From: a virus
Taxonomy: Duplodnaviria > Heunggongvirae > Uroviricota > Caudoviricetes
Reading direction: 5' to 3' (one strand)
Length of the DNA: 64,000 bases
Virus record (IMG/VR): IMGVR_UViG_2622736468_000003
This document shows positions 3,491 to 30,419 of this stretch, piece by piece. Every line of letters starts with the position of its first letter. The first letter of the stretch is position 1. A program made the translations under genes and the position numbers. The notes under the pieces are model-generated. The model was not told where the DNA came from. It did no database searches and saw only the letters and a list, made by a program, of their open reading frames with translations.

Positions 3491-5558
3491 GATTTATCAC
3501 CTCCGAAATGTTCAAGCCTGTTGGCAATCATGATGGCGATATCAGGGATTGCTGGCGCTGTGGCTATACATGCAGGGTTTGCGCACAAACCATAGACGGC
3601 CGCAAGCACGAGCTGCCTTTTCCAGTCGAAATCTGCTTGCTCTGAATCATCATTATTGTCAGAAGCATCACTATGTGGAGCTATGTGGACAACCGAATCG
3701 TGTTCCTGAGTTGTATCAACAGCATTTTCCTGAATGTATTCATTCTTCATTTGTGCTTGTCCATCTCCATCAGCGGCGTCATTTTCTCCAAAAGTTTCTG
3801 TGTAAGTGCTATCGCCCATTACTGGACCACAGTCAGGGCAATGCCCGCCAGCGCTCTGACTGCATGCGGTGCAAACCTTTTCCACTTCCTGTTGCATTAC
3901 TGGCCCTGGCTGTTGCTCTTCCGGTCCGTTTTGTTGCGTATCCGGGCTGTTTTGTTCCGCTTCTGGCTCAATTTGTTCCACTTTGGACTGATTCAGGTCC
4001 TCAGTGTCGCGAGTCTGGATCCCCTTCACCCACTTCGGATCAGCAGGGTTACTGATGCCTTCAACGAATTCTCCACGCGAGGCAGCCAGTAATTTGTCGG
4101 CATCGACTGGATTTTTTGGGGGGATGTTTTCCCTGGCTTTATTGAGTTCCTCCCTCAGTTCCTGGTATTTCGTTTCTACAGATGAGACATTTTCCAGTGA
4201 TTGCGTGTCCTCATTATGTTTAACTGGAATTTCTTCCACTGATTCAGGCGCTGCCTGTTCATTAGCCATTGTGTCCGATGCTTGTTGCTTTTCTTCATCG
4301 CCATGTTTCCCTTCTGCTGTTCCGCGCTGCGGCATCGGGGCTGATGAGCGACCGCAGGCAATTTCCACGATTTCCGGATCCGGGTTAGCGTGATCGGTTT
4401 CGGTCAACACTTTGTTGAGATATTCAGTCACGCGTGCCGGGATGGCCTCAATGCCGATTGGTGCTTCTTTCACGGAAGCCACCACAATGGCGCGGGAATA
4501 ATCCAGCCCACCGGGCATGGCGATAAATTTGTCGCGAAAAACAGAAAAGGGCGGCTTATTCTCTGACACGATTTCTTCAACGCGTTTTGCGTGTGCTGGG
4601 TGCAGGTTATAAATATCCACATCCATTGAACGGGCCAGAACGCCGGTGGCTACATCTCGTGCGAGTGATGTCTTATCATGTTTGAATCCTTCACCACGAT
4701 CGGTAAGATTTCCGCCGCCAGCGTTAGCACCGGAAGGCGTACGGGTAATGCCTGAAACATAATTTCCGTTCTGCCATTCTTTTGTCAGCAGGCCCTGATC
4801 AAGGTAGTCAGTTTTCATCCAGGTGGAAATGAACTTGTCGAATTCAGCCGGGCTGATGCGATGATTTGCAGAGTGGGGGAATGCTTTCCCTACAGATTCA
4901 GCCAGGCGACTAAGGTGATAGTTCGTCAGTTTATCCAGTTCATGATGTGCGGCGCGCACAGCAGTAAGCAGGCTCTGAAGGTAACTGTCCTCTGTGTCCA
5001 TCTCCATACGGATCACGTTATTGCGTTGTTCTGGTGTGGCGTGATGCCGGTATTTTCCATCTTCATCCTTGCTGAAGAAGAAGAGGTGAAGGAAGCGATG
5101 AGTAAGGCTCAGAGTGGCGACGGGAATTTCACACTCAGAACAGTCATCGTCGCTGTCCGGGGATTCGCTTTTCTCCACATCATCCGGAATAGTTCCGTCC
5201 AGGTTATCGTTGTCATCGCCAGCAGTTGTGGCATCTTCACCGTTGATGTTGTCATCGAAGGGATAGCCATCATGGTGATGCCATCGTTACCGCCTTTTTC
5301 ATAGCGGTTGCAGAATTCAGTATCAAACACGCCTTCCGGTGGAAGGTCATTCACGACGGGGAAATTTACGCGAACGGGTTTTTTGAAATCATCCTCGTCG
5401 TAGCCTGCATCGTCCATGGCTGCAATGCAGCGGGAAACTGCGACAGAAAGTTTTCTGGCCTCGGTCCAGAAAAAACCGCCTTTGATGCCAAGGCGTTTTC
5501 TGACTTTATCGTTTTTTGCTTCGCAGTGCAGTGCAAAAGTCTGTTTATCAGCGCTCAT
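3487..5558 (-). pseudogene. Large acidic early-operon protein, apparently frameshifted (about 690 codons if repaired)
   Basis: The 149-aa ORF 5109..5558 and the 563-aa ORF 3487..5178 (GTG start) overlap by 70 bp; the downstream frame stays open upstream to a TAA near 5281 and encodes a continuous acidic linker, implying a 1-nt frameshift near 5265-5285; Cys clusters CSEC and CTAC..HCPDC; function unknown. Confidence 0.5.
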
Positions 5559-6227: not shown

Positions 6228-7114
6228 TGCCACTGCTGGATAAGCTGCGTGAGCAGTACGGGGTCGGACCGCTATGCAGCGAACTGCATATTGCCCCGTC
6301 AACGTATTACCACTGTCAGCAACAGCGACATCATCCGGATAAACGCAGTGCCCGTGCGCAGCGCGATGACTGGCTGAAGAAAGAGATACAGCGCGTATAC
6401 GATGAAAATCACAAGGTATACGGTGTGCGTAAAGTCTGGCGTCAGTTGTTACGGGAAGGTATCAGAGTGGCCAGATGCACTGTGGCACGTCTCATGGCGG
6501 TTATGGGACTTGCCGGTGTTCTCCGGGGTAAAAAGGTCCGTACGACCATCAGCCGGAAAGCCGTTGCCGCAGGCGACCGCGTAAACCGTCAGTTCGTGGC
6601 AGAACGACCTGACCAGCTGTGGGTGGCTGATTTTACTTACGTCAGCACATGGCAGGGCTTCGTCTATGTGGCGTTCATCATTGATGTGTTTGCCGGATAC
6701 ATCGTGGGGTGGCGGGTCTCATCGTCCATGGAAACGACATTCGTGCTGGATGCACTGGAGCAGGCGTTATGGGCCCGTCGACCGTCCGGCACGGTCCATC
6801 ACAGTGATAAAGGTTCTCAGTATGTATCGCTGGCCTACACACAGCGGCTTAAGGAAGCCGGATTACTGGCATCAACAGGAAGTACAGGCGACTCGTATGA
6901 CAACGCGATGGCGGAGAGCATCAATGGTCTTTACAAAGCGGAGGTAATACACCGTAAGAGCTGGAAAAACCGGACAGAAGTGGAGCTGGCCACACTCACG
7001 TGGGTGGACTGGTATAACAATCGACGATTGCTGGAAAGGCTGGGCCATACTCCTCCGGCAGAAGCAGAAAAAGCTTATTATGCTTCCATCGGAAACGATG
7101 ATCTGGCAGCCTGA
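6224..7114 (+). CDS. IS629 transposase OrfB (integrase catalytic domain)
   Basis: 296 aa; overlaps orfA as in IS3-family frameshift fusion. Confidence 0.9.
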
Positions 7115-22769: not shown

Positions 22770-23078
22770 TTAGATTGAGTACGTGAGGAGCCCCTTCCGA
22801 AATGCACTTTCCTCAGTAGCGGTTATATTTTCACGTTCATTTTTTGCGTATGCATATACGAAAAAGGCCCTTGTGCCGACGCGATAGAAAATGATTGTGC
22901 GATAACCGCCAGATTTGCCGCCACCGACTCGTGGCAGACGTTGCTTGATAACGCCGTTACCCAGGTTTGCTGAGATAAGCCCGTTATCAGCCTGTTTAAC
23001 AATTTCGCGCAGTGACTGGTCGGATATTTTGTTTTTGTGTGCAAATCGCTCAAACCAGGCGTTTTTAAAAATGCGCAT
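22770..23078 (-). CDS. RelE/ParE-superfamily toxin (HigB-like)
   Basis: 102 aa; GGGKSGGYRTIIFYR...FFVYAYAKNE resembles RelE-like killer proteins. Confidence 0.55.
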   Translation of the reverse strand: MRIFKNAWFERFAHKNKISDQSLREIVKQADNGLISANLGNGVIKQRLPRVGGGKSGGYRTIIFYRVGTRAFFVYAYAKNERENITATEESAFRKGLLTYSI

Positions 23079-23203
23079 TTTTTTGTTCCGTTATTAATGT
23101 ATAACACATAGTATTACATTGCGTAGGGATCTGCAATGCCATCAGTTTGACAACGTCGCGTATCCGGGATTATATTCATCGCACGCCAGCAAAATCTGGC
23201 GTC

Positions 23204-23382
23204 GGGATTAGGAACCCCGGATAGAAACCGCGACAGAGACACGCCGCGAGCGTGTTTTTTATTGTCGTATGCACACGCACATCTGAATTATGGTGGGGCG
23301 TATAGGGGAGCTGAAAAGCTCGCCGGTTGGTTTCCCGGTAGTTCCTAACCCTGTACGTCTCGCCACCCGATGATTAGGAACC
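23204..23382. promoter_or_regulatory. Three copies of a GGATTAGGAACC-like motif upstream of the ORF6N gene
   Basis: Direct copies at 23204-23218 and 23372-23382, inverted copy at 23341-23350; hairpin plus T-run at 23238-23262. Confidence 0.3.
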
Positions 23383-23423
23383 TGACGGTGGTGATAGTTT
23401 AGAAACCACTCGAGGGCGTCATT

Positions 23424-24095
23424 ATGACAACTCAAGTTTCTGTTGAAACACTCTCCACGATTACTTACAAGCAGATCCCCGTTATCACTACCGAACTTTT
23501 GGCGCACCTTTACGGCACAGAAGCTATTCGTATTCGCCAGAATCACCACGAAAACAAAGGTCGTTTCATTGAGGAAAAACACTTCTTCAAACTTGAAGGT
23601 GAAACTTTACGTGAGTTCAAGCACAGAGTAGCTTTTAACTACTCTGTGAAAATTGCCCGTAACGTTCGCTCCCTCATCCTATGGACAGAACGCGGCGCAG
23701 CCCGTCACGCAAAAATGCTCGAAACTGATCAGGCGTGGGAGGTATTCGAAAAACTGGAAGACTGCTATTTCAGCCAGGGAAAAACAGCACCAACCGAACA
23801 GCAGCCGCAGATTCAGCCACAATTCACAGCCGAAGAAATCATCCTCCTTTGCTACATGCAGCTCTGGATGGAAAAAGCCCAGGACCTCAGCAAACACCTG
23901 TATCCCATTATGAAAGAGCTGAACTCCTCATACACGAACAAGCTGTATGACATTGCGTTTGAGACCATCTACATGGTGACGAAGAACAGAGACGCGCTAC
24001 TAAGGGAGGTAACACGTCTCGACATGTCAAGTTCCATTATCCAGCGGGCCATGCCAATGCTGAAAAGCCTGCGGGCAAGACAATTTGAATTCTGA
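23424..24095 (+). CDS. ORF6N/KilA-N-like domain protein
   Basis: N-terminal ELLAHLYGTEAIRIRQNHHENKGRFIEEKHFFKLEGE...LILWTERGAARHAK. Confidence 0.55.
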   Translation: MTTQVSVETLSTITYKQIPVITTELLAHLYGTEAIRIRQNHHENKGRFIEEKHFFKLEGETLREFKHRVAFNYSVKIARNVRSLILWTERGAARHAKMLETDQAWEVFEKLEDCYFSQGKTAPTEQQPQIQPQFTAEEIILLCYMQLWMEKAQDLSKHLYPIMKELNSSYTNKLYDIAFETIYMVTKNRDALLREVTRLDMSSSIIQRAMPMLKSLRARQFEF

Positions 24096-25421: not shown

Positions 25422-25615
25422 TGAATGCTAAAATTCAAACGATACCTGAATTACTGATCTGCACCAGGGGAAATCAGACAGAAGTCGCCAGAATACTGAA
25501 CTGCAATCGTGCCACAGTCAGAAAATACATTGATGATAAAGATGCGAAAAAGCACGCCGTCGTCAATGGCGTCCTTATGGTTCATCGCGGATGGGGTAAA
25601 GATACTGATGCGTGA
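25418..25615 (+). CDS. ninH: NinH-like protein
   Basis: 65 aa; [25 protein letters not shown] and VLMVHRGW resemble recalled lambda NinH. Confidence 0.7.
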
Positions 25616-25988
25616 TATCCGGCAGGTTCTTGAGCGCTGGGGGGCATGGGCGGCAAATAACTATGAGGATGTTACATGGTCGCCCATTGCTGCCGGATTT
25701 AAGAGGCTGATCCCCGAAAAAGTAAAATCACGTCCACAGTGTTGTGACGATGACGCGATGATTATATGCGGGTGCATGGCTCGCCTTAACAGGAACAACA
25801 GCGATCTGCATGACTTGCTGGTGGATTACTACGTGTTGGGGGAGACGTTCATGGCGCTGGCCCGTAAGCATGGATGCTCTGATGGAACTATCGGTAAAAA
25901 ATTACAGAAAGCGGAGGGCGTGGTTGAAGGGATGTTAATGTTACTTGGTGTCAGACTGGAAATGGACCGATATGCGCAACGCCTCTGA
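25608..25988 (+). CDS. Q: Q late antiterminator (phage 21/933W type)
   Basis: 126 aa from ATG 25608; [17 protein letters not shown] zinc motif; sits between the nin genes and the lysis region. Confidence 0.75.
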
Positions 25989-26119
25989 CAGGAGGCGTTT
26001 GCCGTTCACTATGTGAAGTGTGTCAATTTGTGAGCGTTATGCTGTTTACTTTATAGTACAGGGACGTAAGAGTTATCTACCTGTTAATAACATATATACA
26101 ACAATGAACAGGGGGCAAA

Positions 26120-26713
26120 ATGGACATTGAAGATTTTCTGGAGGCGGAAGACAATGATCTGTCTCTGTGGAATGATGATATTTTAAGCATTGACTGGTTC
26201 GTTATCCTCAAAGAGCTTTTGAAATACCAGAACAGGTTAAAGTTAAACTATTCAGAATTACTTCTGCTGGCTAATTTTGTTTCATTTCACCAGGACGTAG
26301 ATTCGCAAACATTACCATCAATATCTCTTTTTGCCACCAGAATGCGTGCATCTCGTGCCATTATAGAAGAAGGCTTTCAACGCCTGGAGGAGAAAGGGAT
26401 GTTGCAGAAGATAAGTTATGCTCAAATCGGTCATGATTATGATTTGCGGAACGTTTATGACATCAAGCCATTAATTCGTAAGTTAATTGAGGTGCTGAAA
26501 ACCGAGTATGATAAAAAGCACACTTGCCCCCTCTGCGGCAAAATAGCTGTCTCTGATGAGGAAATTGAGAAAAAATTCGGATTCAGAATTTGCGGGAATA
26601 AGAAAAGGCCGCAAAGCTGGTGCCGTTCATGCAGAAGCACGAAACAACGCAGACTGAATTCATCGCTAATTGGCAAAAAAAAGCCCCGAAAATCTCCGCC
26701 CGAGGTGGTGTGA
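26120..26713 (+). CDS. Hypothetical protein, AT-rich moron downstream of Q
   Basis: 197 aa; C-terminal CPLCGK...CRSCRS zinc-ribbon-like and basic tail. Confidence 0.5.
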   Translation: MDIEDFLEAEDNDLSLWNDDILSIDWFVILKELLKYQNRLKLNYSELLLLANFVSFHQDVDSQTLPSISLFATRMRASRAIIEEGFQRLEEKGMLQKISYAQIGHDYDLRNVYDIKPLIRKLIEVLKTEYDKKHTCPLCGKIAVSDEEIEKKFGFRICGNKKRPQSWCRSCRSTKQRRLNSSLIGKKKPRKSPPEVV

Positions 26714-26825
26714 AGCGTCGCGGAACCCCGGATTCCACTCACGATTGAACGAGGTGCTAAAAAGTATTTTACGTACGTAAAAATCTGCATATCATGATAA
26801 GAGTGGTTACATTGCCACGCTGCTT

Positions 26826-26852
26826 AACCCGCCGATGCGCGGGTTTTTTTGT
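26826..26852 (+). terminator. Rho-independent terminator
   Basis: CCGCCGATGCGCGG hairpin followed by a run of seven T. Confidence 0.45.
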
Positions 26853-27030
26853 ACCCAGAATCCTGTGAGCTATACGGAAAGTACACAGAAAGGAAGGTAC
26901 GACCGCAATTAATAACAAAATCTTAAAAATCTCATATGGCACTATTAGTTTTCTAAATATTGTATATTTTAAGTATTGCAGGATAACCCTGTAACGAAGT
27001 TTGCGTAACAGCATTTTGCTCTACGAGTTT

Positions 27031-27061
27031 GCCAGCCTCCCCTGGTGGCTGGCTTTTTTTG
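27031..27061 (+). terminator. Rho-independent terminator
   Basis: GCCAGCC...GGCTGGC hairpin followed by a T-run. Confidence 0.4.
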
Positions 27062-27545
27062 TATCCGTTCAACGGGAATGTTACATACCTCACAATTAAG
27101 TCAGTTGAATGTTGTCTGCCCGGATGAGAATTTGTTAGAAAAAACTGCATGGTGAATCCCCCTGAGCGGAGGGGCGACTGGTGACGGTATAATCTCTGAT
27201 TATCAAAACGAGAATGACGCGGGTTTAGTGGCACCGGGCTGAACTCACCGGGAGGCACCCGGCACCATGCAATGGCACATAGCGCCACTCTCCAGCCCCT
27301 CTCCGGAGGGGCTTTCTTATGGACAAAAAAGCCCGCGCTGGGAGACGCGGGCGGCAAGGAATAAACAATGAAACGTGAAGTAATATTTCAGCTGGCGAAT
27401 AATACCCCATAGTAATCACTCTGCGCAACTGCGCGACCTTTTTCGAATTGCGGGCTGTAGTCTCCCTTCTGCCATTGTCCTGTAACTTCCGGACTTCAGC
27501 CCGCTCCTTATTTTACTCACAATATTATCCCGGCCGGGAGGATTC

Positions 27546-29109
27546 ATGGCATTTAAACACTATGATGTTGTCAGGGCGGCGTCGCCGTCAGACCTTGCGA
27601 AACGAATAACTCAAAAACTGAAGGAAGGGTGGCAGCCTTATGGTAGTGCGCTGATTTCGACAGCTGGTTATGGTGCGGAGTTCATCCAGCCAGTTGTGAG
27701 TGAGGGGAGCATCTCATCACCAGAGGAGCCAGGCAACCGTCCGACGACCTCAGCGCCTTCTGTTGCGCCAGAATATTACTATGTGATCGCGCTTGCTGGT
27801 CAGTCCAATGGTATGTCATACGGTGAGGGACTGCCATTACCGGATACATTCGACAGCCCTGATCCACGTATTAAACAGTTAGCGCGTCGCAGTACGGTGA
27901 CACCGGGCGGTGCAGCATGCAAATATAACGACATCATTCCGGCGGACCATTGTCTGCATGATGTGCAGGACATGAGCCGTCTTAACCATCCGAAAGCGGA
28001 CCTGTCAAAGGGGCAGTACGGAACCGTGGGGCAGGGGCTGCATATCGCCAAAAAACTGCTGCCGTTTATACCGGCGAATGCGGGCATTCTGCTGGTTCCG
28101 TGCTGTCGTGGTGGTTCAGCGTTCACCACCGGAGCTGATGGCACATACAGTGACGCGAGTGGCGCCTCGGAGAATTCAACCCGCTGGGGTGTGGACAAGC
28201 CGCTGTATAAGGACCTTATCGGTCGAACAAAAGCGGCACTGGAGAAGAACCCGAAAAATGTGCTGTTTGCCGTGGTGTGGATGCAGGGGGAATTTGATTT
28301 TGGCGGTACGCCGGCAAATCATGCCGCACAGTTTGGTGCGCTGGTTGATAAATTCCGTGCAGACCTGGCGGATATGGCAGGCCAGTGCGTCGGTGGCTCT
28401 GCTGGCGGTGTTCCCTGGATATGCGGGGACACGACGTATTTCTGGAAGCAGAAGAACGAATCCACGTACCAGACGGTGTACGGCAGCTATAAAAATAAAA
28501 CGGAAAAGAATATCCATTTCGTACCGTTCATGACCGATGAGAACGGGGTGAATGTGCCGACGAACAAACCGGAAGAAGACCCGGACATTCCGGGTATCGG
28601 TTATTACGGTTCGAAATGGCGTGACAGCTCAGCCACCTGGACGTCACAGGACAGGGCGAGCCATTTCAGTTCATGGGCTCGCCGTGGGATTATTTCCGAC
28701 CGTCTGGCAACGGCGATTCTGAGCTGCGCGGGTAAGTCTTCTGCGTTTGTTAATGGTACTGCCGGGGTGGTTGTTCCAGACAGACCGGTTACCACCTCAG
28801 AGTCTGTAATTTTTTACGATGCCAAAAAAGCTACAGACAATCAGCTGAAACCCTATGGCTGGGACGGTGTGTATGGCAGGCGCACACTGGTTGATGACAG
28901 CGGCAATAAAGCTCTGCGAATTGAGAAAAATAACAGCGCGAAATCCTGGTCAATGTACTGTGATATTGCTGCAGACAAGGCAAAACTTTTACTGGAAAAA
29001 GGCGGGGAAATTGCTGTCCGGTTTAAAATCCCCGAAAACGTCAATCTTGAGACAACCAGAAACAAGTATGCCTTTGGTTTGTACTGGCGAATAGCGGAAT
29101 GGCCGGGTG
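27546..29109 (+). pseudogene. nanS: Prophage sialate O-acetylesterase (NanS-p type), 5' part, split by IS629
   Basis: N-terminal MAFKHYDVVRAASPSDLAKRITQKLKEGWQPYG domain followed by a SASA-type esterase core; ORF ends in IS-derived codons. Confidence 0.75.
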
Positions 29110-29163
29110 TGAACCGCCCCGGGAATCCTGGAGACTAAACTTCCTGAGAAAGAGGTAAACAGG

Positions 29164-29490
29164 ATGACTAAAAATACTCGTTTTTCCCCCGAAGTCCGTC
29201 AACGGGCAGTCCGTATGGTTCTGGAAAGTCAGAGCGAATATGACTCACAATGGGCGACAATTTGTTCCATTGCTCCAAAGATTGGCTGTACGCCGGAGAC
29301 TCTGCGTGTCTGGGTTCGCCAGCATGAGCGGGATACCGGGGGCGGTGATGGAGGGCTCACCACCGCTGAACGTCAGCGTCTGAAAGAGCTGGAGCGTGAA
29401 AATCGTGAACTGCGCCGCAGTAACGATATCCTTCGCCAGGCTTCCGCTTATTTTGCGAAGGCGGAGTTCGACCGCCTCTGGAAAAAATGA
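29164..29490 (+). CDS. IS629 transposase OrfA
   Basis: Identical to the copy-1 OrfA. Confidence 0.9.
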
Positions 29491-30377
29491 TGCCACTGCT
29501 GGATAAGCTGCGTGAGCAGTACGGGGTCGGACCGCTATGCAGCGAACTGCATATTGCCCCGTCAACGTATTACCACTGTCAGCAACAGCGACATCATCCG
29601 GATAAACGCAGTGCCCGTGCGCAGCGCGATGACTGGCTGAAGAAAGAGATACAGCGCGTATACGATGAAAATCACAAGGTATACGGTGTGCGTAAAGTCT
29701 GGCGTCAGTTGTTACGGGAAGGTATCAGAGTGGCCAGATGCACTGTGGCACGTCTCATGGCGGTTATGGGACTTGCCGGTGTTCTCCGGGGTAAAAAGGT
29801 CCGTACGACCATCAGCCGGAAAGCCGTTGCCGCAGGCGACCGCGTAAACCGTCAGTTCGTGGCAGAACGACCTGACCAGCTGTGGGTGGCTGATTTTACT
29901 TACGTCAGCACATGGCAGGGCTTCGTCTATGTGGCGTTCATCATTGATGTGTTTGCCGGATACATCGTGGGGTGGCGGGTCTCATCGTCCATGGAAACGA
30001 CATTCGTGCTGGATGCACTGGAGCAGGCGTTATGGGCCCGTCGACCGTCCGGCACGGTCCATCACAGTGATAAAGGTTCTCAGTATGTATCGCTGGCCTA
30101 CACACAGCGGCTTAAGGAAGCCGGATTACTGGCATCAACAGGAAGTACAGGCGACTCGTATGACAACGCGATGGCGGAGAGCATCAATGGTCTTTACAAA
30201 GCGGAGGTAATACACCGTAAGAGCTGGAAAAACCGGACAGAAGTGGAGCTGGCCACACTCACGTGGGTGGACTGGTATAACAATCGACGATTGCTGGAAA
30301 GGCTGGGCCATACTCCTCCGGCAGAAGCAGAAAAAGCTTATTATGCTTCCATCGGAAACGATGATCTGGCAGCCTGA
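29487..30377 (+). CDS. IS629 transposase OrfB
   Basis: Identical to the copy-1 OrfB. Confidence 0.9.
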
Positions 30378-30419
30378 GTTCACAGATAAAACACTCTCCA
30401 GGAAACCCGGGGCGGTTCA

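What the first reader, a model, noticed from the sequence alone, without database searches (positions are those of the whole stretch)
26120..26713. AT-rich moron immediately downstream of Q, in the position Stx phages use for toxin cargo
The Q-to-lysis interval of 933W-type phages carries tRNAs and stx genes ahead of nanS-p. Here the same interval contains an unrelated 197-aa AT-rich ORF with a C-terminal zinc-ribbon-like CPLCGK...CRSCRS and a basic tail, then about 830 bp of hairpin-rich non-coding DNA, then nanS-p. It would be expressed at very high level from pR' during induction. Its function is unknown.
Basis: partly seen in the sequence, partly recalled or inferred. Interest (0 to 1): 0.5.

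Follow-up and report, generated by a model that had tools for sequence, protein, structure and literature searches.

The report
DNA-binding moron between Q and pR'
The 197-aa gene is real and conserved, but it lies upstream of the phage late promoter in a small foreign insert, encodes a probable DNA-binding protein related to small-plasmid proteins, and usually travels with Shiga toxin 1, which is missing here.

Summary
The ORF at 26120-26713 is a real gene under purifying selection (dN/dS 0.17-0.34). It has a DnaD_N-type winged helix, above Pfam's cut-off, and a conserved C4 zinc ribbon. It is "ORF1" of Shigella Stx1 phage 7888 (also in POCJ13 and 75/02; phrog_34160) and has never been characterised.

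Compared with Sakai Sp5, Nil3 and phi296, a 781-bp AT-rich cassette (25975-26755) replaces 43 bp at the 3' end of a 933W-type Q gene. The mapped late promoter pR', the 258-nt StxS leader and tR' (26768-27060) all lie downstream of the ORF. The gene is therefore not late-operon cargo and should not be driven by pR'.

The real cargo slot is 27063-27076 and is empty here. The same slot holds stx1AB in 15 of the 19 complete E. coli genomes that carry this ORF, and tRNAs in others. Most of the "non-coding 830 bp" is accounted for by pR'/StxS/tR' and an STnc100-family sRNA.

The closest non-phage relatives (41-42% identity) are on ColE1-like plasmids. More distant relatives sit at the head of fimbrial operons. 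The best reading is a sequence-specific DNA-binding regulator acquired as a moron. Its target is unknown. Interest is moderate to low.

The parts
25608..25988 (+). Q antiterminator, 126-aa allele. It follows the 933W-type Q up to about residue 122, and its last codons are supplied by the inserted cassette.
   Evidence: Pfam Phage_antitermQ E 3e-51, covering model positions 1-118 of 118. Translation compared with the 144-aa Nil3 Q. Annotated as a 381-bp Q gene in every ORF1-bearing locus.
25975..26755 (+). 781-bp AT-rich cassette (42.5% GC) that replaces 43 bp of 933W-type phages. It carries a hairpin, about 115 bp of leader and ORF1.
   Evidence: Homology with Sakai Sp5, Nil3 and phi296 stops at 25974 and resumes at 26756. 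GC. The leader is found only in the ORF1-bearing phages.
25972..26005 (+). G+C-rich hairpin straddling the Q stop codon. It looks like an insulating or weak intrinsic terminator.
   Evidence: -18.1 kcal/mol, z -3.5. The stem is kept by compensatory changes in UPEC-245U and 06-00048, and a T-run follows it in 2013C-3033.
26028..26057 (+). Candidate sigma-70 promoter for ORF1 (TTGTGA, 18-nt spacer, TATAGT). Weak evidence.
   Evidence: 9 of 12 consensus matches. The hexamers are not conserved in all alleles.
26120..26713 (+). ORF1, 197 aa: a winged-helix plus zinc-ribbon protein (phrog_34160; ORF1 of phage 7888).
26210..26512 (+). DnaD_N / HTH_36-type winged-helix domain (aa 31-131). The predicted third helix (aa 79-91) is the most variable stretch of the folded domains (aa 121-130 and the tail vary as much).
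26519..26635 (+). C4 zinc ribbon (H134, C136, C139 ... FGFR ... QSW, C168, C171, R172).
   Evidence: The motif residues are invariant across phage, plasmid and fimbrial-locus homologues. The domain also occurs alone or in tandem elsewhere. Model pLDDT is 74-82 in this region.
26636..26710 (+). Basic C-terminal tail, present only in the phage alleles and variable among them.
   Evidence: Alignments; variability.
26756..26780 (+). Leftover 3' end (last 25 nt) of a 144-aa 933W-type Q gene, no longer attached to Q.
   Evidence: Alignment to Sakai Sp5 and Nil3.
26768..26795 (+). Late promoter pR' (-35 TTTACG, -10 TATCAT), with the inferred transcription start near 26802.
   Evidence: The core is identical to Sakai Sp5. 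There, the distance from 7 nt past the -10 element to the end of the terminator T-run is exactly the published 258 nt. The core is invariant in 8 loci.
26802..27060 (+). StxS-type leader RNA (long form), ending at tR' (27029-27060). An earlier terminator-like hairpin lies at 26826-26852.
   Evidence: 94.5% identity to Sakai Sp5. Experimental mapping is in PMC7547250. Terminator scan and folding. A terminator is annotated at the same place in phage 7888.
27063..27076 (.). Empty cargo slot. The same junction holds stx1AB (1490 bp) in POCJ13 and PV15-279, tRNAs (469 bp) in phi296, and tRNAs plus TerB (1193 bp) in 06-00048.
   Evidence: The same empty allele is found in NMBU-W12E19 and UPEC-245U.
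27119..27324 (+). STnc100-family prophage sRNA.
   Evidence: Rfam RF02076 at 165 bits (gathering score 47), E 9e-39, full length. Literature context.
27546..29138 (+). nanS-p (DUF1737 plus SASA esterase), truncated by an IS.
   Evidence: Pfam and PHROG matches. The intact gene is present in NMBU-W12E19.

Best explanation
ORF1 is a horizontally acquired accessory gene (a moron) encoding a small sequence-specific DNA-binding protein. It has one replication-initiator-type winged helix, followed by a C4 zinc ribbon and a basic tail.

The gene sits in a 781-bp AT-rich cassette inserted between the body of a 933W-type Q gene and that gene's late promoter pR'. The insertion gave Q a new, shorter C-terminus (126 aa instead of 144).

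Because pR', the StxS leader and tR' all lie downstream of ORF1, it cannot be transcribed from pR'. Two routes remain. It may be read from a promoter of its own in the roughly 115-bp leader, behind the hairpin that follows Q, and so possibly be expressed in the lysogen. Or it may be the last gene of the N-antiterminated delayed-early transcript that makes Q.

Its most likely activity is that of a transcription factor or site-specific DNA binder acting in trans on a target outside the cassette. Candidates are host or phage genes, or elements carrying cognate sites.

What is shown: the gene is real and under selection; the domain content; the insertion boundaries; the position relative to pR'/tR'; the linkage to stx1a; and the homology to plasmid and fimbrial-locus proteins.

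What is inferred: DNA binding, the route of expression, and the regulatory role. The target is unknown.
For: - Real gene: full-length phrog_34160 match; 16 homologue clusters, all from E. coli; dN/dS 0.17-0.34, against 0.04-0.10 for Q; a conserved ribosome-binding site.
- Position: homology to Sakai Sp5, Nil3 and phi296 breaks at 25974/26756. The pR' core is identical, and the 258-nt pR'-to-tR' spacing matches the dRNA-seq and Term-seq mapping in PMC7547250. The pR' core is invariant in all ORF1 loci.
- The cargo downstream varies (stx1AB, tRNAs plus TerB, or nothing), while Q-ORF1-pR' stays constant.
- Regulator-like relatives: proteins 41-42% identical over both domains on ColE1-like plasmids carry a perfect 42-48-bp palindrome just upstream of their start codon, which looks like an autoregulatory operator. 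More distant two-domain relatives sit between an NlpC/P60 gene and a chaperone-usher fimbrial operon in two lineages only 39% identical to each other.
- The hairpin after Q is maintained by compensatory changes.
Against: - No promoter for ORF1 is convincingly conserved. The best candidate scores 9 of 12 and varies among alleles.
- The plasmid-type palindromic operator is absent upstream of the phage gene.
- The DnaD N-terminal domain is primarily an oligomerisation scaffold rather than a DNA reader (my own knowledge). A Pfam hit to it therefore does not prove DNA binding.
- The structure model is only moderate (mean pLDDT 66), and no viral structure matched significantly.
- One allele, in strain 06-00048, is frameshifted.
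- No expression or binding data exist.
Confidence: 0.5

Rival explanations
1. One reading: ORF1 is late-operon cargo occupying the stx position. It would be transcribed at very high level from pR' once Q antiterminates.
For: It lies between Q and the lysis genes, and 131 bp after Q. A promoter-like site lies between Q and the ORF.
Against: The pR'-StxS-tR' unit homologous to the experimentally mapped one lies downstream of the ORF and is invariant there in all ORF1 loci. The ORF leader has no similarity to any other phage's Q-pR' region, and the window holds no second copy of the pR' sequence. The stx and tRNA cargo of related phages sits at 27063-27076, not at the ORF.
Confidence: 0.04
2. ORF1 is an orphan replication-type iteron-binding protein captured from a small plasmid without its binding sites. 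Expressed from the prophage, it would act in trans on ColE1-like plasmids or other replicons that carry cognate repeats. The effect could be incompatibility, anti-plasmid interference or helper activity. Alternatively it could interfere with a rival lambdoid origin.
For: The winged helix gives sub-threshold matches to RepC, phage O N-terminal domain and DnaD, and to PHROG replication initiators and helicase loaders. The nearest relatives are on 2.6-15.9 kb plasmids. Four of seven plasmids examined have arrays of repeats with 11-12-bp periodicity 410-540 bp downstream of the gene. The most variable stretch of the folded domains is the predicted third helix (aa 79-91; aa 121-130 varies as much), which would fit diverging specificities.
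Against: The plasmids examined are mostly ColE1-type: two carry RNAI and others carry Rop or Mob genes, so they need no Rep protein. The repeat arrays are missing from three of the seven. There are no iterons in the cassette and no related array anywhere in the window. The fimbrial-locus relatives point to transcriptional control rather than replication. The protein lacks a second winged helix and a DnaD C-terminal domain.
Confidence: 0.2
3. ORF1 is a lysogen-expressed defence or superinfection-exclusion factor that binds incoming nucleic acid.
For: It has a moron-like architecture and atypical GC. The gene is rare and patchy, found in 19 of 5426 genomes. The same zinc ribbon is fused to a protein with a nuclease-like motif in one distant homologue, P0030 (my reading of the sequence).
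Against: No PADLOC model matches. There is no enzymatic domain and no partner gene in the cassette.
Confidence: 0.1
4. ORF1 is a functionless hitch-hiker that persists only because it is wedged between Q and pR'.
For: One allele is frameshifted. No function is known, and the cassette carries no operator or binding sites.
Against: dN/dS of 0.17-0.34 at dS up to 0.6. The four Cys and the FGFR/QSW motif are invariant across the full-length and distant homologues. The ribosome-binding site is conserved.
Confidence: 0.06

Closest known systems
ORF1 of Shigella sonnei Stx1 phage 7888 (CAC12886) and its counterparts in Shigella phages POCJ13 (AHZ95199) and 75/02 Stx; PHROG family phrog_34160
   Same: Same gene: 83-87% amino-acid identity over the full length, and the same Q(126 aa)-ORF1-pR'-tR' arrangement.
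   Different: Those phages carry stx1AB in the slot after tR', whereas this window has the slot empty. None of these genes has an assigned function.
"Helix-turn-helix domain-containing protein" of ColE1-like small plasmids (for example WP_123906182 of the 2959-bp plasmid p3_005237; Citrobacter/Enterobacteriaceae cluster P0018)
   Same: 41-42% identity across both domains (BLASTP 1e-42), with the same winged helix plus C4 ribbon and the same conserved motifs.
   Different: The plasmid genes have a perfect palindrome immediately upstream. They often have a repeat array with 11-bp periodicity downstream and a divergent ~150-aa partner gene. The phage cassette has none of these, and it adds a basic tail. 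The plasmid proteins are also uncharacterised.
DnaD N-terminal domain (PF21984; PDB 2vn2, 8ojj) and related initiator winged helices (HTH_36, phage O N-terminal domain, RepC)
   Different: ORF1 has no DnaD C-terminal (DnaB_2) domain and no adjacent origin. It has a zinc ribbon instead.
stx/tRNA cargo of 933W-type and Stx1 phages (the classical Q-downstream morons)
   Same: Both are foreign, non-essential DNA between Q and the lysis genes.
   Different: That cargo lies downstream of pR' and tR' and depends on Q antitermination. ORF1 lies upstream of pR'.

Membership tests
Late-operon (pR'-driven) cargo such as stx | Located downstream of the pR' transcription start and tR', so that expression needs Q antitermination | tested here: not met
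   pR' is at 26768-26795, the start is near 26802 and tR' ends at 27060. All of these lie 3' of the ORF.
Late-operon (pR'-driven) cargo such as stx | Occupies the variable slot between tR' and the nanS-p upstream region that holds stx or tRNAs in relatives | tested here: not met
   That slot is 27063-27076 and is empty here.
Lambdoid moron (extra gene inserted between conserved phage genes) | Present in some phages and absent from otherwise collinear relatives, with sharp homology boundaries | tested here: met
   The 781 bp replace 43 bp relative to Sakai Sp5, Nil3 and phi296.
Lambdoid moron (extra gene inserted between conserved phage genes) | Base composition different from its neighbours | tested here: met
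   42.5% GC, against about 50-51%.
Lambdoid moron (extra gene inserted between conserved phage genes) | Own promoter and own terminator | tested here: inconclusive
   There is a 9-of-12 promoter-like site that is not conserved in all alleles. A conserved hairpin lies upstream of the gene rather than downstream. No terminator lies between the stop codon and pR'.
DnaD / replication-initiator proteins | DnaD_N winged helix | tested here: met
   PF21984 at 34.8 bits, above the 27-bit gathering score; PDB 2vn2 at E 7e-4.
DnaD / replication-initiator proteins | A DnaD C-terminal (DnaB_2) domain, or a second winged-helix domain as in the RepA/pi/RepE type | tested here: not met
   No such Pfam or NCBIfam match. 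The C-terminal half is a zinc ribbon.
DnaD / replication-initiator proteins | Adjacent origin with iterons | tested here: not met
   No tandem or direct repeat array in 25900-27100, and no related array elsewhere in the window.
Plasmid/fimbrial-locus winged-helix plus zinc-ribbon family (uncharacterised) | Both domains collinear, with an invariant H-x-C-P-x-C ... F-G-x-R ... S-x-C-x-x-C-R motif | tested here: met
   Alignment A4; profile E-values of 5e-38 to 1e-9 for full-length hits; BLASTP 1e-42.
Plasmid/fimbrial-locus winged-helix plus zinc-ribbon family (uncharacterised) | Long perfect palindrome (putative operator) directly upstream of the gene | tested here: not met
   Present in L011, L012 and L013 but absent upstream of the phage gene.
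Known late regulators (Q families, Ogr/Delta zinc-finger activators) | Profile match to the family | tested here: not met
   No such match in Pfam, NCBIfam or PHROGs at E<=1.
Known anti-phage defence proteins | Match to a PADLOC model | tested here: not met
   0 families matched.
Zinc-binding protein | Binds Zn through the four Cys | not testable with these tools
   Only the sequence conservation of C136, C139, C168 and C171 could be assessed.

The most novel reading that the evidence does not exclude
ORF1 is a plasmid-derived DNA-binding protein that a clade of Stx1a and Stx1a-like prophages expresses independently of Q. It would be made in the lysogen, from a promoter behind the post-Q hairpin. 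It would take part in conflict or cooperation between mobile elements, controlling ColE1-like plasmids or rival elements that carry cognate palindromes or repeats. Alternatively it would reprogram host genes such as fimbrial operons. Transcription from its promoter would also run into pR' and so tune StxS and Stx1 output.
Probability: 0.12. Interest if true: 0.6.

Novelty: new member of a known kind. Interest (0 to 1): 0.33.

Why it matters
The gene marks a small clade of Stx1a phages that includes the Shigella Stx1 converters 7888, POCJ13 and 75/02. It lies at the one place where the antiterminator gene meets the promoter that drives toxin and lysis genes. If it is expressed in lysogens, it is a candidate prophage-encoded regulator, and its transcription would run straight into pR'/StxS.

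More practically, the corrected map of this interval shows three things:
- where cargo really enters these phages (a defined slot after tR');
- that this prophage is an stx1-phage backbone with that slot empty;
- that most of the "non-coding" DNA consists of known regulatory RNA elements.

The winged-helix plus zinc-ribbon family itself, shared by phages, ColE1-like plasmids and fimbrial loci, has no characterised member.

Tried and rejected
1. Plasmid Rep hypothesis. The closest non-phage homologue is the only annotated CDS of a 2959-bp plasmid that has iteron-like 33-bp repeats, which at first suggested an iteron Rep protein. This was weakened when Rfam found ColE1 RNAI on that plasmid and on L012, other carriers turned out to have Rop or Mob genes, and three of seven plasmids lacked arrays.

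2. stx or tRNA remnants. ARAGORN found no tRNA. There is no stx coding sequence, only the cassette flanks.

3. Simple repeat-mediated deletion of stx1. POCJ13 has ATAAATGTT on both sides of the cassette. The window junction is not the product of that recombination, and the same empty allele occurs in two other strains.

4. Toxin-antitoxin link. The divergent ~150-aa plasmid partner gene is unrelated to the YafO toxin of L012 or to NlpC/P60.

5. Defence models (PADLOC) gave no match.

6. Viral structure library: no significant match. The afdb50 library was not available.

7. The genome-contig scan keyed on the zinc-ribbon motif. Apart from one full-length hit (L027), it returned matches confined to the zinc-ribbon region, from Nitrosopumilaceae, Clostridia and Myxococcota, which say little about the two-domain protein.

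8. Literature. The 2001 paper on phage 7888 is not held. No paper found discusses this ORF.

9. A half-site resembling the plasmid palindrome (TTAATAACATATAT, about 26085-26100) is not conserved among the phage alleles, so I treat it as chance.

Full report
**1. The observation**

An ATG ORF of 197 aa lies at 26120-26713 on the + strand. It starts 131 bp after the stop codon of a Q antiterminator gene, which matches Pfam Phage_antitermQ at E 3e-51. A GGGGG ribosome-binding site precedes the ORF.

Its GC content is 41.4%. Q is 50.9% and the whole window is 50.3%.

The C-terminal CPLCGK...CRSCRS motif and the basic tail are present. The following 832 bp hold no tRNA and no ORF with family support. 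nanS-p (DUF1737 plus SASA) starts at 27546.

The ORF is a real gene:
- It matches phrog_34160 over its full length (E 2.5e-124).
- Its N-terminal half matches Pfam DnaD_N at 34.8 bits, above the 27-bit gathering score.
- It has 16 homologue clusters, all from E. coli.
- Six alleles give dN/dS of 0.17-0.34 at dS up to 0.6.

**2. The gene is already in the databases, next to stx1**

The ORF and its flanks match Shigella phages POCJ13, 75/02 Stx and 7888. In 7888 it is annotated "ORF1, hypothetical protein". The gene order there is Q, ORF1, a rho-independent terminator, stxA, stxB and then ORF2, which corresponds to nanS-p.

Only 19 of 5426 complete E. coli genomes carry the ORF. In 15 of them the ORF is directly followed by stx1a. 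The other four have tRNAs plus a TerB-like gene (06-00048 and 2013C-3033) or nothing (NMBU-W12E19, whose ORF is 100% identical, and UPEC-245U).

**3. Where the late promoter lies**

I compared the window with three 933W-type phages: Sakai Sp5, Nil3 and phi296.
- Window 25469-25974 aligns with ninH and the body of Q.
- Homology then breaks. Window 25975-26755 (781 bp, 42.5% GC) stands in place of only 43 bp in those phages.
- Homology resumes at 26756-27062, at 94.5% identity.

The resumed segment begins with the last 25 nt of the 144-aa 933W-type Q gene. It continues with TTTACG, a 16-nt spacer and TATCAT, and ends at a strong terminator.

Sy et al. (PMC7547250) mapped pR' and tR' in Sakai by dRNA-seq and Term-seq. 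They found them 258 nt apart, with the StxS sRNA between them. In Sakai, the distance from 7 nt past TATCAT to the end of the terminator T-run is exactly 258 nt. The coordinate offset this implies between the paper's coordinates and the record I used also places the published tR' 3' end exactly at the end of the terminator T-run.

This places the elements in the window as follows:
- pR' at 26768-26795.
- The transcription start near 26802.
- tR' ending at 27060.

All of these are downstream of ORF1. The pR' core is invariant in all seven ORF1-bearing loci and in Sakai. The ORF1 leader (25975-26125) matches nothing in the phage collection except the ORF1 phages themselves. No second copy of the pR' sequence lies upstream of the ORF.

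The ORF is therefore not in the pR' transcript and not in the toxin position. It sits in a cassette wedged between Q and pR'. As a result Q here is 126 aa rather than 144, ending ...RYAQRL instead of ...[24 protein letters not shown]. It still covers the whole Pfam Q model, positions 1-118 of 118.

**4. The true cargo slot**

Window 27062 and 27077 are the two points between which relatives carry cargo:
- stx1AB with its promoter, 1490 bp, in POCJ13 and O157 strain PV15-279.
- A methyltransferase fragment and three tRNAs, 469 bp, in phi296.
- tRNAs plus TerB, 1193 bp, in 06-00048.

In the window the slot is 14 bp. The same empty allele occurs in NMBU-W12E19 and UPEC-245U. It is not the product of recombination between the ATAAATGTT repeats that flank stx1 in POCJ13.

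**5. The rest of the "hairpin-rich non-coding DNA"**

- 26802-27060 is the StxS-type leader with tR'.
- 27119-27324 is a full-length STnc100-family sRNA (Rfam 165 bits against a gathering score of 47). This is a known prophage sRNA family often found next to esterase genes.

**6. What the protein looks like**

The AlphaFold model is moderate overall (mean pLDDT 66). The winged helix and the zinc ribbon reach 74-82.

The zinc-ribbon motif (H, CPxC, FGxR, S-x-C-x-x-C-R) is invariant from phage to plasmid to fimbrial-locus homologues. The ribbon also exists alone as 50-66-aa proteins, in tandem copies, and in widely separated taxa.

Among the phage alleles the most variable stretches are aa 81-90 (the predicted third helix), aa 121-130 (the linker) and the basic tail.

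**7. Relatives outside phages**

A profile search of 1.8 billion representatives found few full-length relatives.

The nearest, at 41-42% identity over both domains (BLASTP 1e-42), are encoded on 2.6-15.9 kb Enterobacterales plasmids. I first took this protein for an iteron Rep. In the 2959-bp plasmid p3_005237 it is the only annotated CDS. It is preceded by a perfect 46-bp palindrome and followed by five 33-bp repeats.

Later evidence weakened that reading:
- Rfam finds ColE1 RNAI on that plasmid and on L012.
- Other carriers have Rop, Mob or colicin genes.
- The arrays, which have 11-12-bp periodicity, are present in only four of seven plasmids.

So the protein is an accessory gene of ColE1-like plasmids, probably autoregulated through the palindrome. 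It is often paired with a conserved divergent ~150-aa gene of unknown function.

More distant two-domain relatives (P0027 and P0031, 39% identical to each other) both sit between an NlpC/P60 gene and a chaperone-usher fimbrial operon. That is the usual place for an operon regulator.

None of these proteins has been characterised. PADLOC gives no match.

**8. How it most likely works**

The evidence favours a sequence-specific DNA-binding protein acquired from the plasmid pool. It would act as a transcription factor or site-specific binder on a target outside the cassette, because the cassette carries neither the palindrome nor repeats.

Expression must come from one of two sources:
- A promoter in the 115-bp leader. 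The best candidate is 26028-26057, which scores 9 of 12 and is not conserved in all alleles.
- Read-through of the N-antiterminated early transcript that makes Q.

The hairpin at 25972-26005, just after Q, is preserved by compensatory changes and carries a T-run in one allele. This would fit an insulated, self-promoted gene, but that is an inference.

The pR' region is invariant while the predicted recognition helix varies. This argues weakly against pR' being the common binding target.

**9. Verdict**

- It is wrong about the gene's position relative to pR', about its expected expression, and about it being unrelated to Stx phages.

The gene is a new, uncharacterised member of a familiar kind, a moron encoding a putative DNA-binding protein, in an unusual spot between Q and pR'. 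Interest is moderate to low.

Noticed in passing
window 27063-27076: Empty cargo slot of an stx1-phage backbone. The same junction holds stx1AB (1490 bp), tRNAs (469 bp) or tRNAs plus TerB (1193 bp) in relatives. The right border, CAATTNAGTCAGTTG, is shared even with Sakai Sp5 downstream of stx2B. The identical empty allele occurs in NMBU-W12E19 and UPEC-245U.
   Followed up: yes
window 26768-27060: A complete pR'-StxS-tR' unit, 94.5% identical to Sakai Sp5, in an stx-negative prophage. A strong terminator-like hairpin (26826-26852) lies only about 25-50 nt after the inferred start, well before the mapped tR'.
   Followed up: partly
window 27119-27324 (+): Full-length STnc100-family sRNA (Rfam RF02076, 165 bits) upstream of nanS-p.
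   Followed up: partly
window 29110-30419: A 1310-bp IS3-family element interrupts nanS-p relative to strain NMBU-W12E19, leaving a 530-aa truncated esterase ORF. It has orfA at 29164-29490 and orfB at 29487-30377. From memory and its size I take it to be IS629-like, and a related phage record annotates IS629 in its matching stretch.
   Followed up: partly
window 25608-25988: The Q allele is 126 aa rather than the 144 aa of 933W-type Q, because the cassette supplies its last codons. The orphaned last 25 nt of the longer Q gene survive at 26756-26780. The -35 element of pR' lies inside what was the Q coding sequence.
   Followed up: yes
window 25972-26005: The hairpin straddling the Q stop codon is kept by compensatory substitutions across alleles. 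It is followed by TTTTTTGTT in strain 2013C-3033.
   Followed up: partly
L011 718-763 and 1768-1932; L012 2450-2495 (approx.) and 3529-3645; L013 1146-1195: The ColE1-like plasmids that carry the ORF1 homologue have a perfect 42-48-bp palindrome directly upstream of the gene. Often they also have an array of repeats with 11-bp periodicity (33-, 22- or 11-bp units sharing a GCAAACA core) about 410-540 bp downstream. Neither feature appears to be annotated.
   Followed up: partly
L013 344-805 (-), L015 940-1395 (-), L016 2683-3138 (-), L017 3120-3566 (+): A conserved ~150-aa hypothetical protein (59-73% identical between genera) is transcribed divergently from the plasmid ORF1 homologue. It matches no Pfam or NCBIfam family and is absent from the phage cassette.
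   Followed up: partly
L018 2005-2526; L019 784-1305; L020 994-1563; L021 166-735: Distant two-domain homologues sit between an NlpC/P60 gene and a chaperone-usher fimbrial operon, in Cedecea and in metagenomic contigs.
   Followed up: partly
proteins P0017, P0020, P0025, P0030; loci L028-L106: The zinc-ribbon module (CPxCGK..FGFR..QSWCxxCR) occurs alone, in tandem, and in one 3179-aa protein (P0017) that gave 34 matched stretches to the profile. In P0030 it is fused to a protein with a PD-(D/E)xK-like motif. It is common in Nitrosopumilaceae, Clostridia and Myxococcota, and no Pfam family covers it.
   Followed up: no
L001 (POCJ13) about 5090-5100 and 6545-6555: A 9-bp direct repeat, ATAAATGTT, flanks the stx1AB cassette in POCJ13, PV15-279 and 7888.
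   Followed up: partly
window 22951-23667 vs L003 2077-5548: Strain NMBU-W12E19 has an IS66-family element and divergent sequence in this stretch, where the window does not. The two prophages are otherwise more than 99% identical.
   Followed up: no
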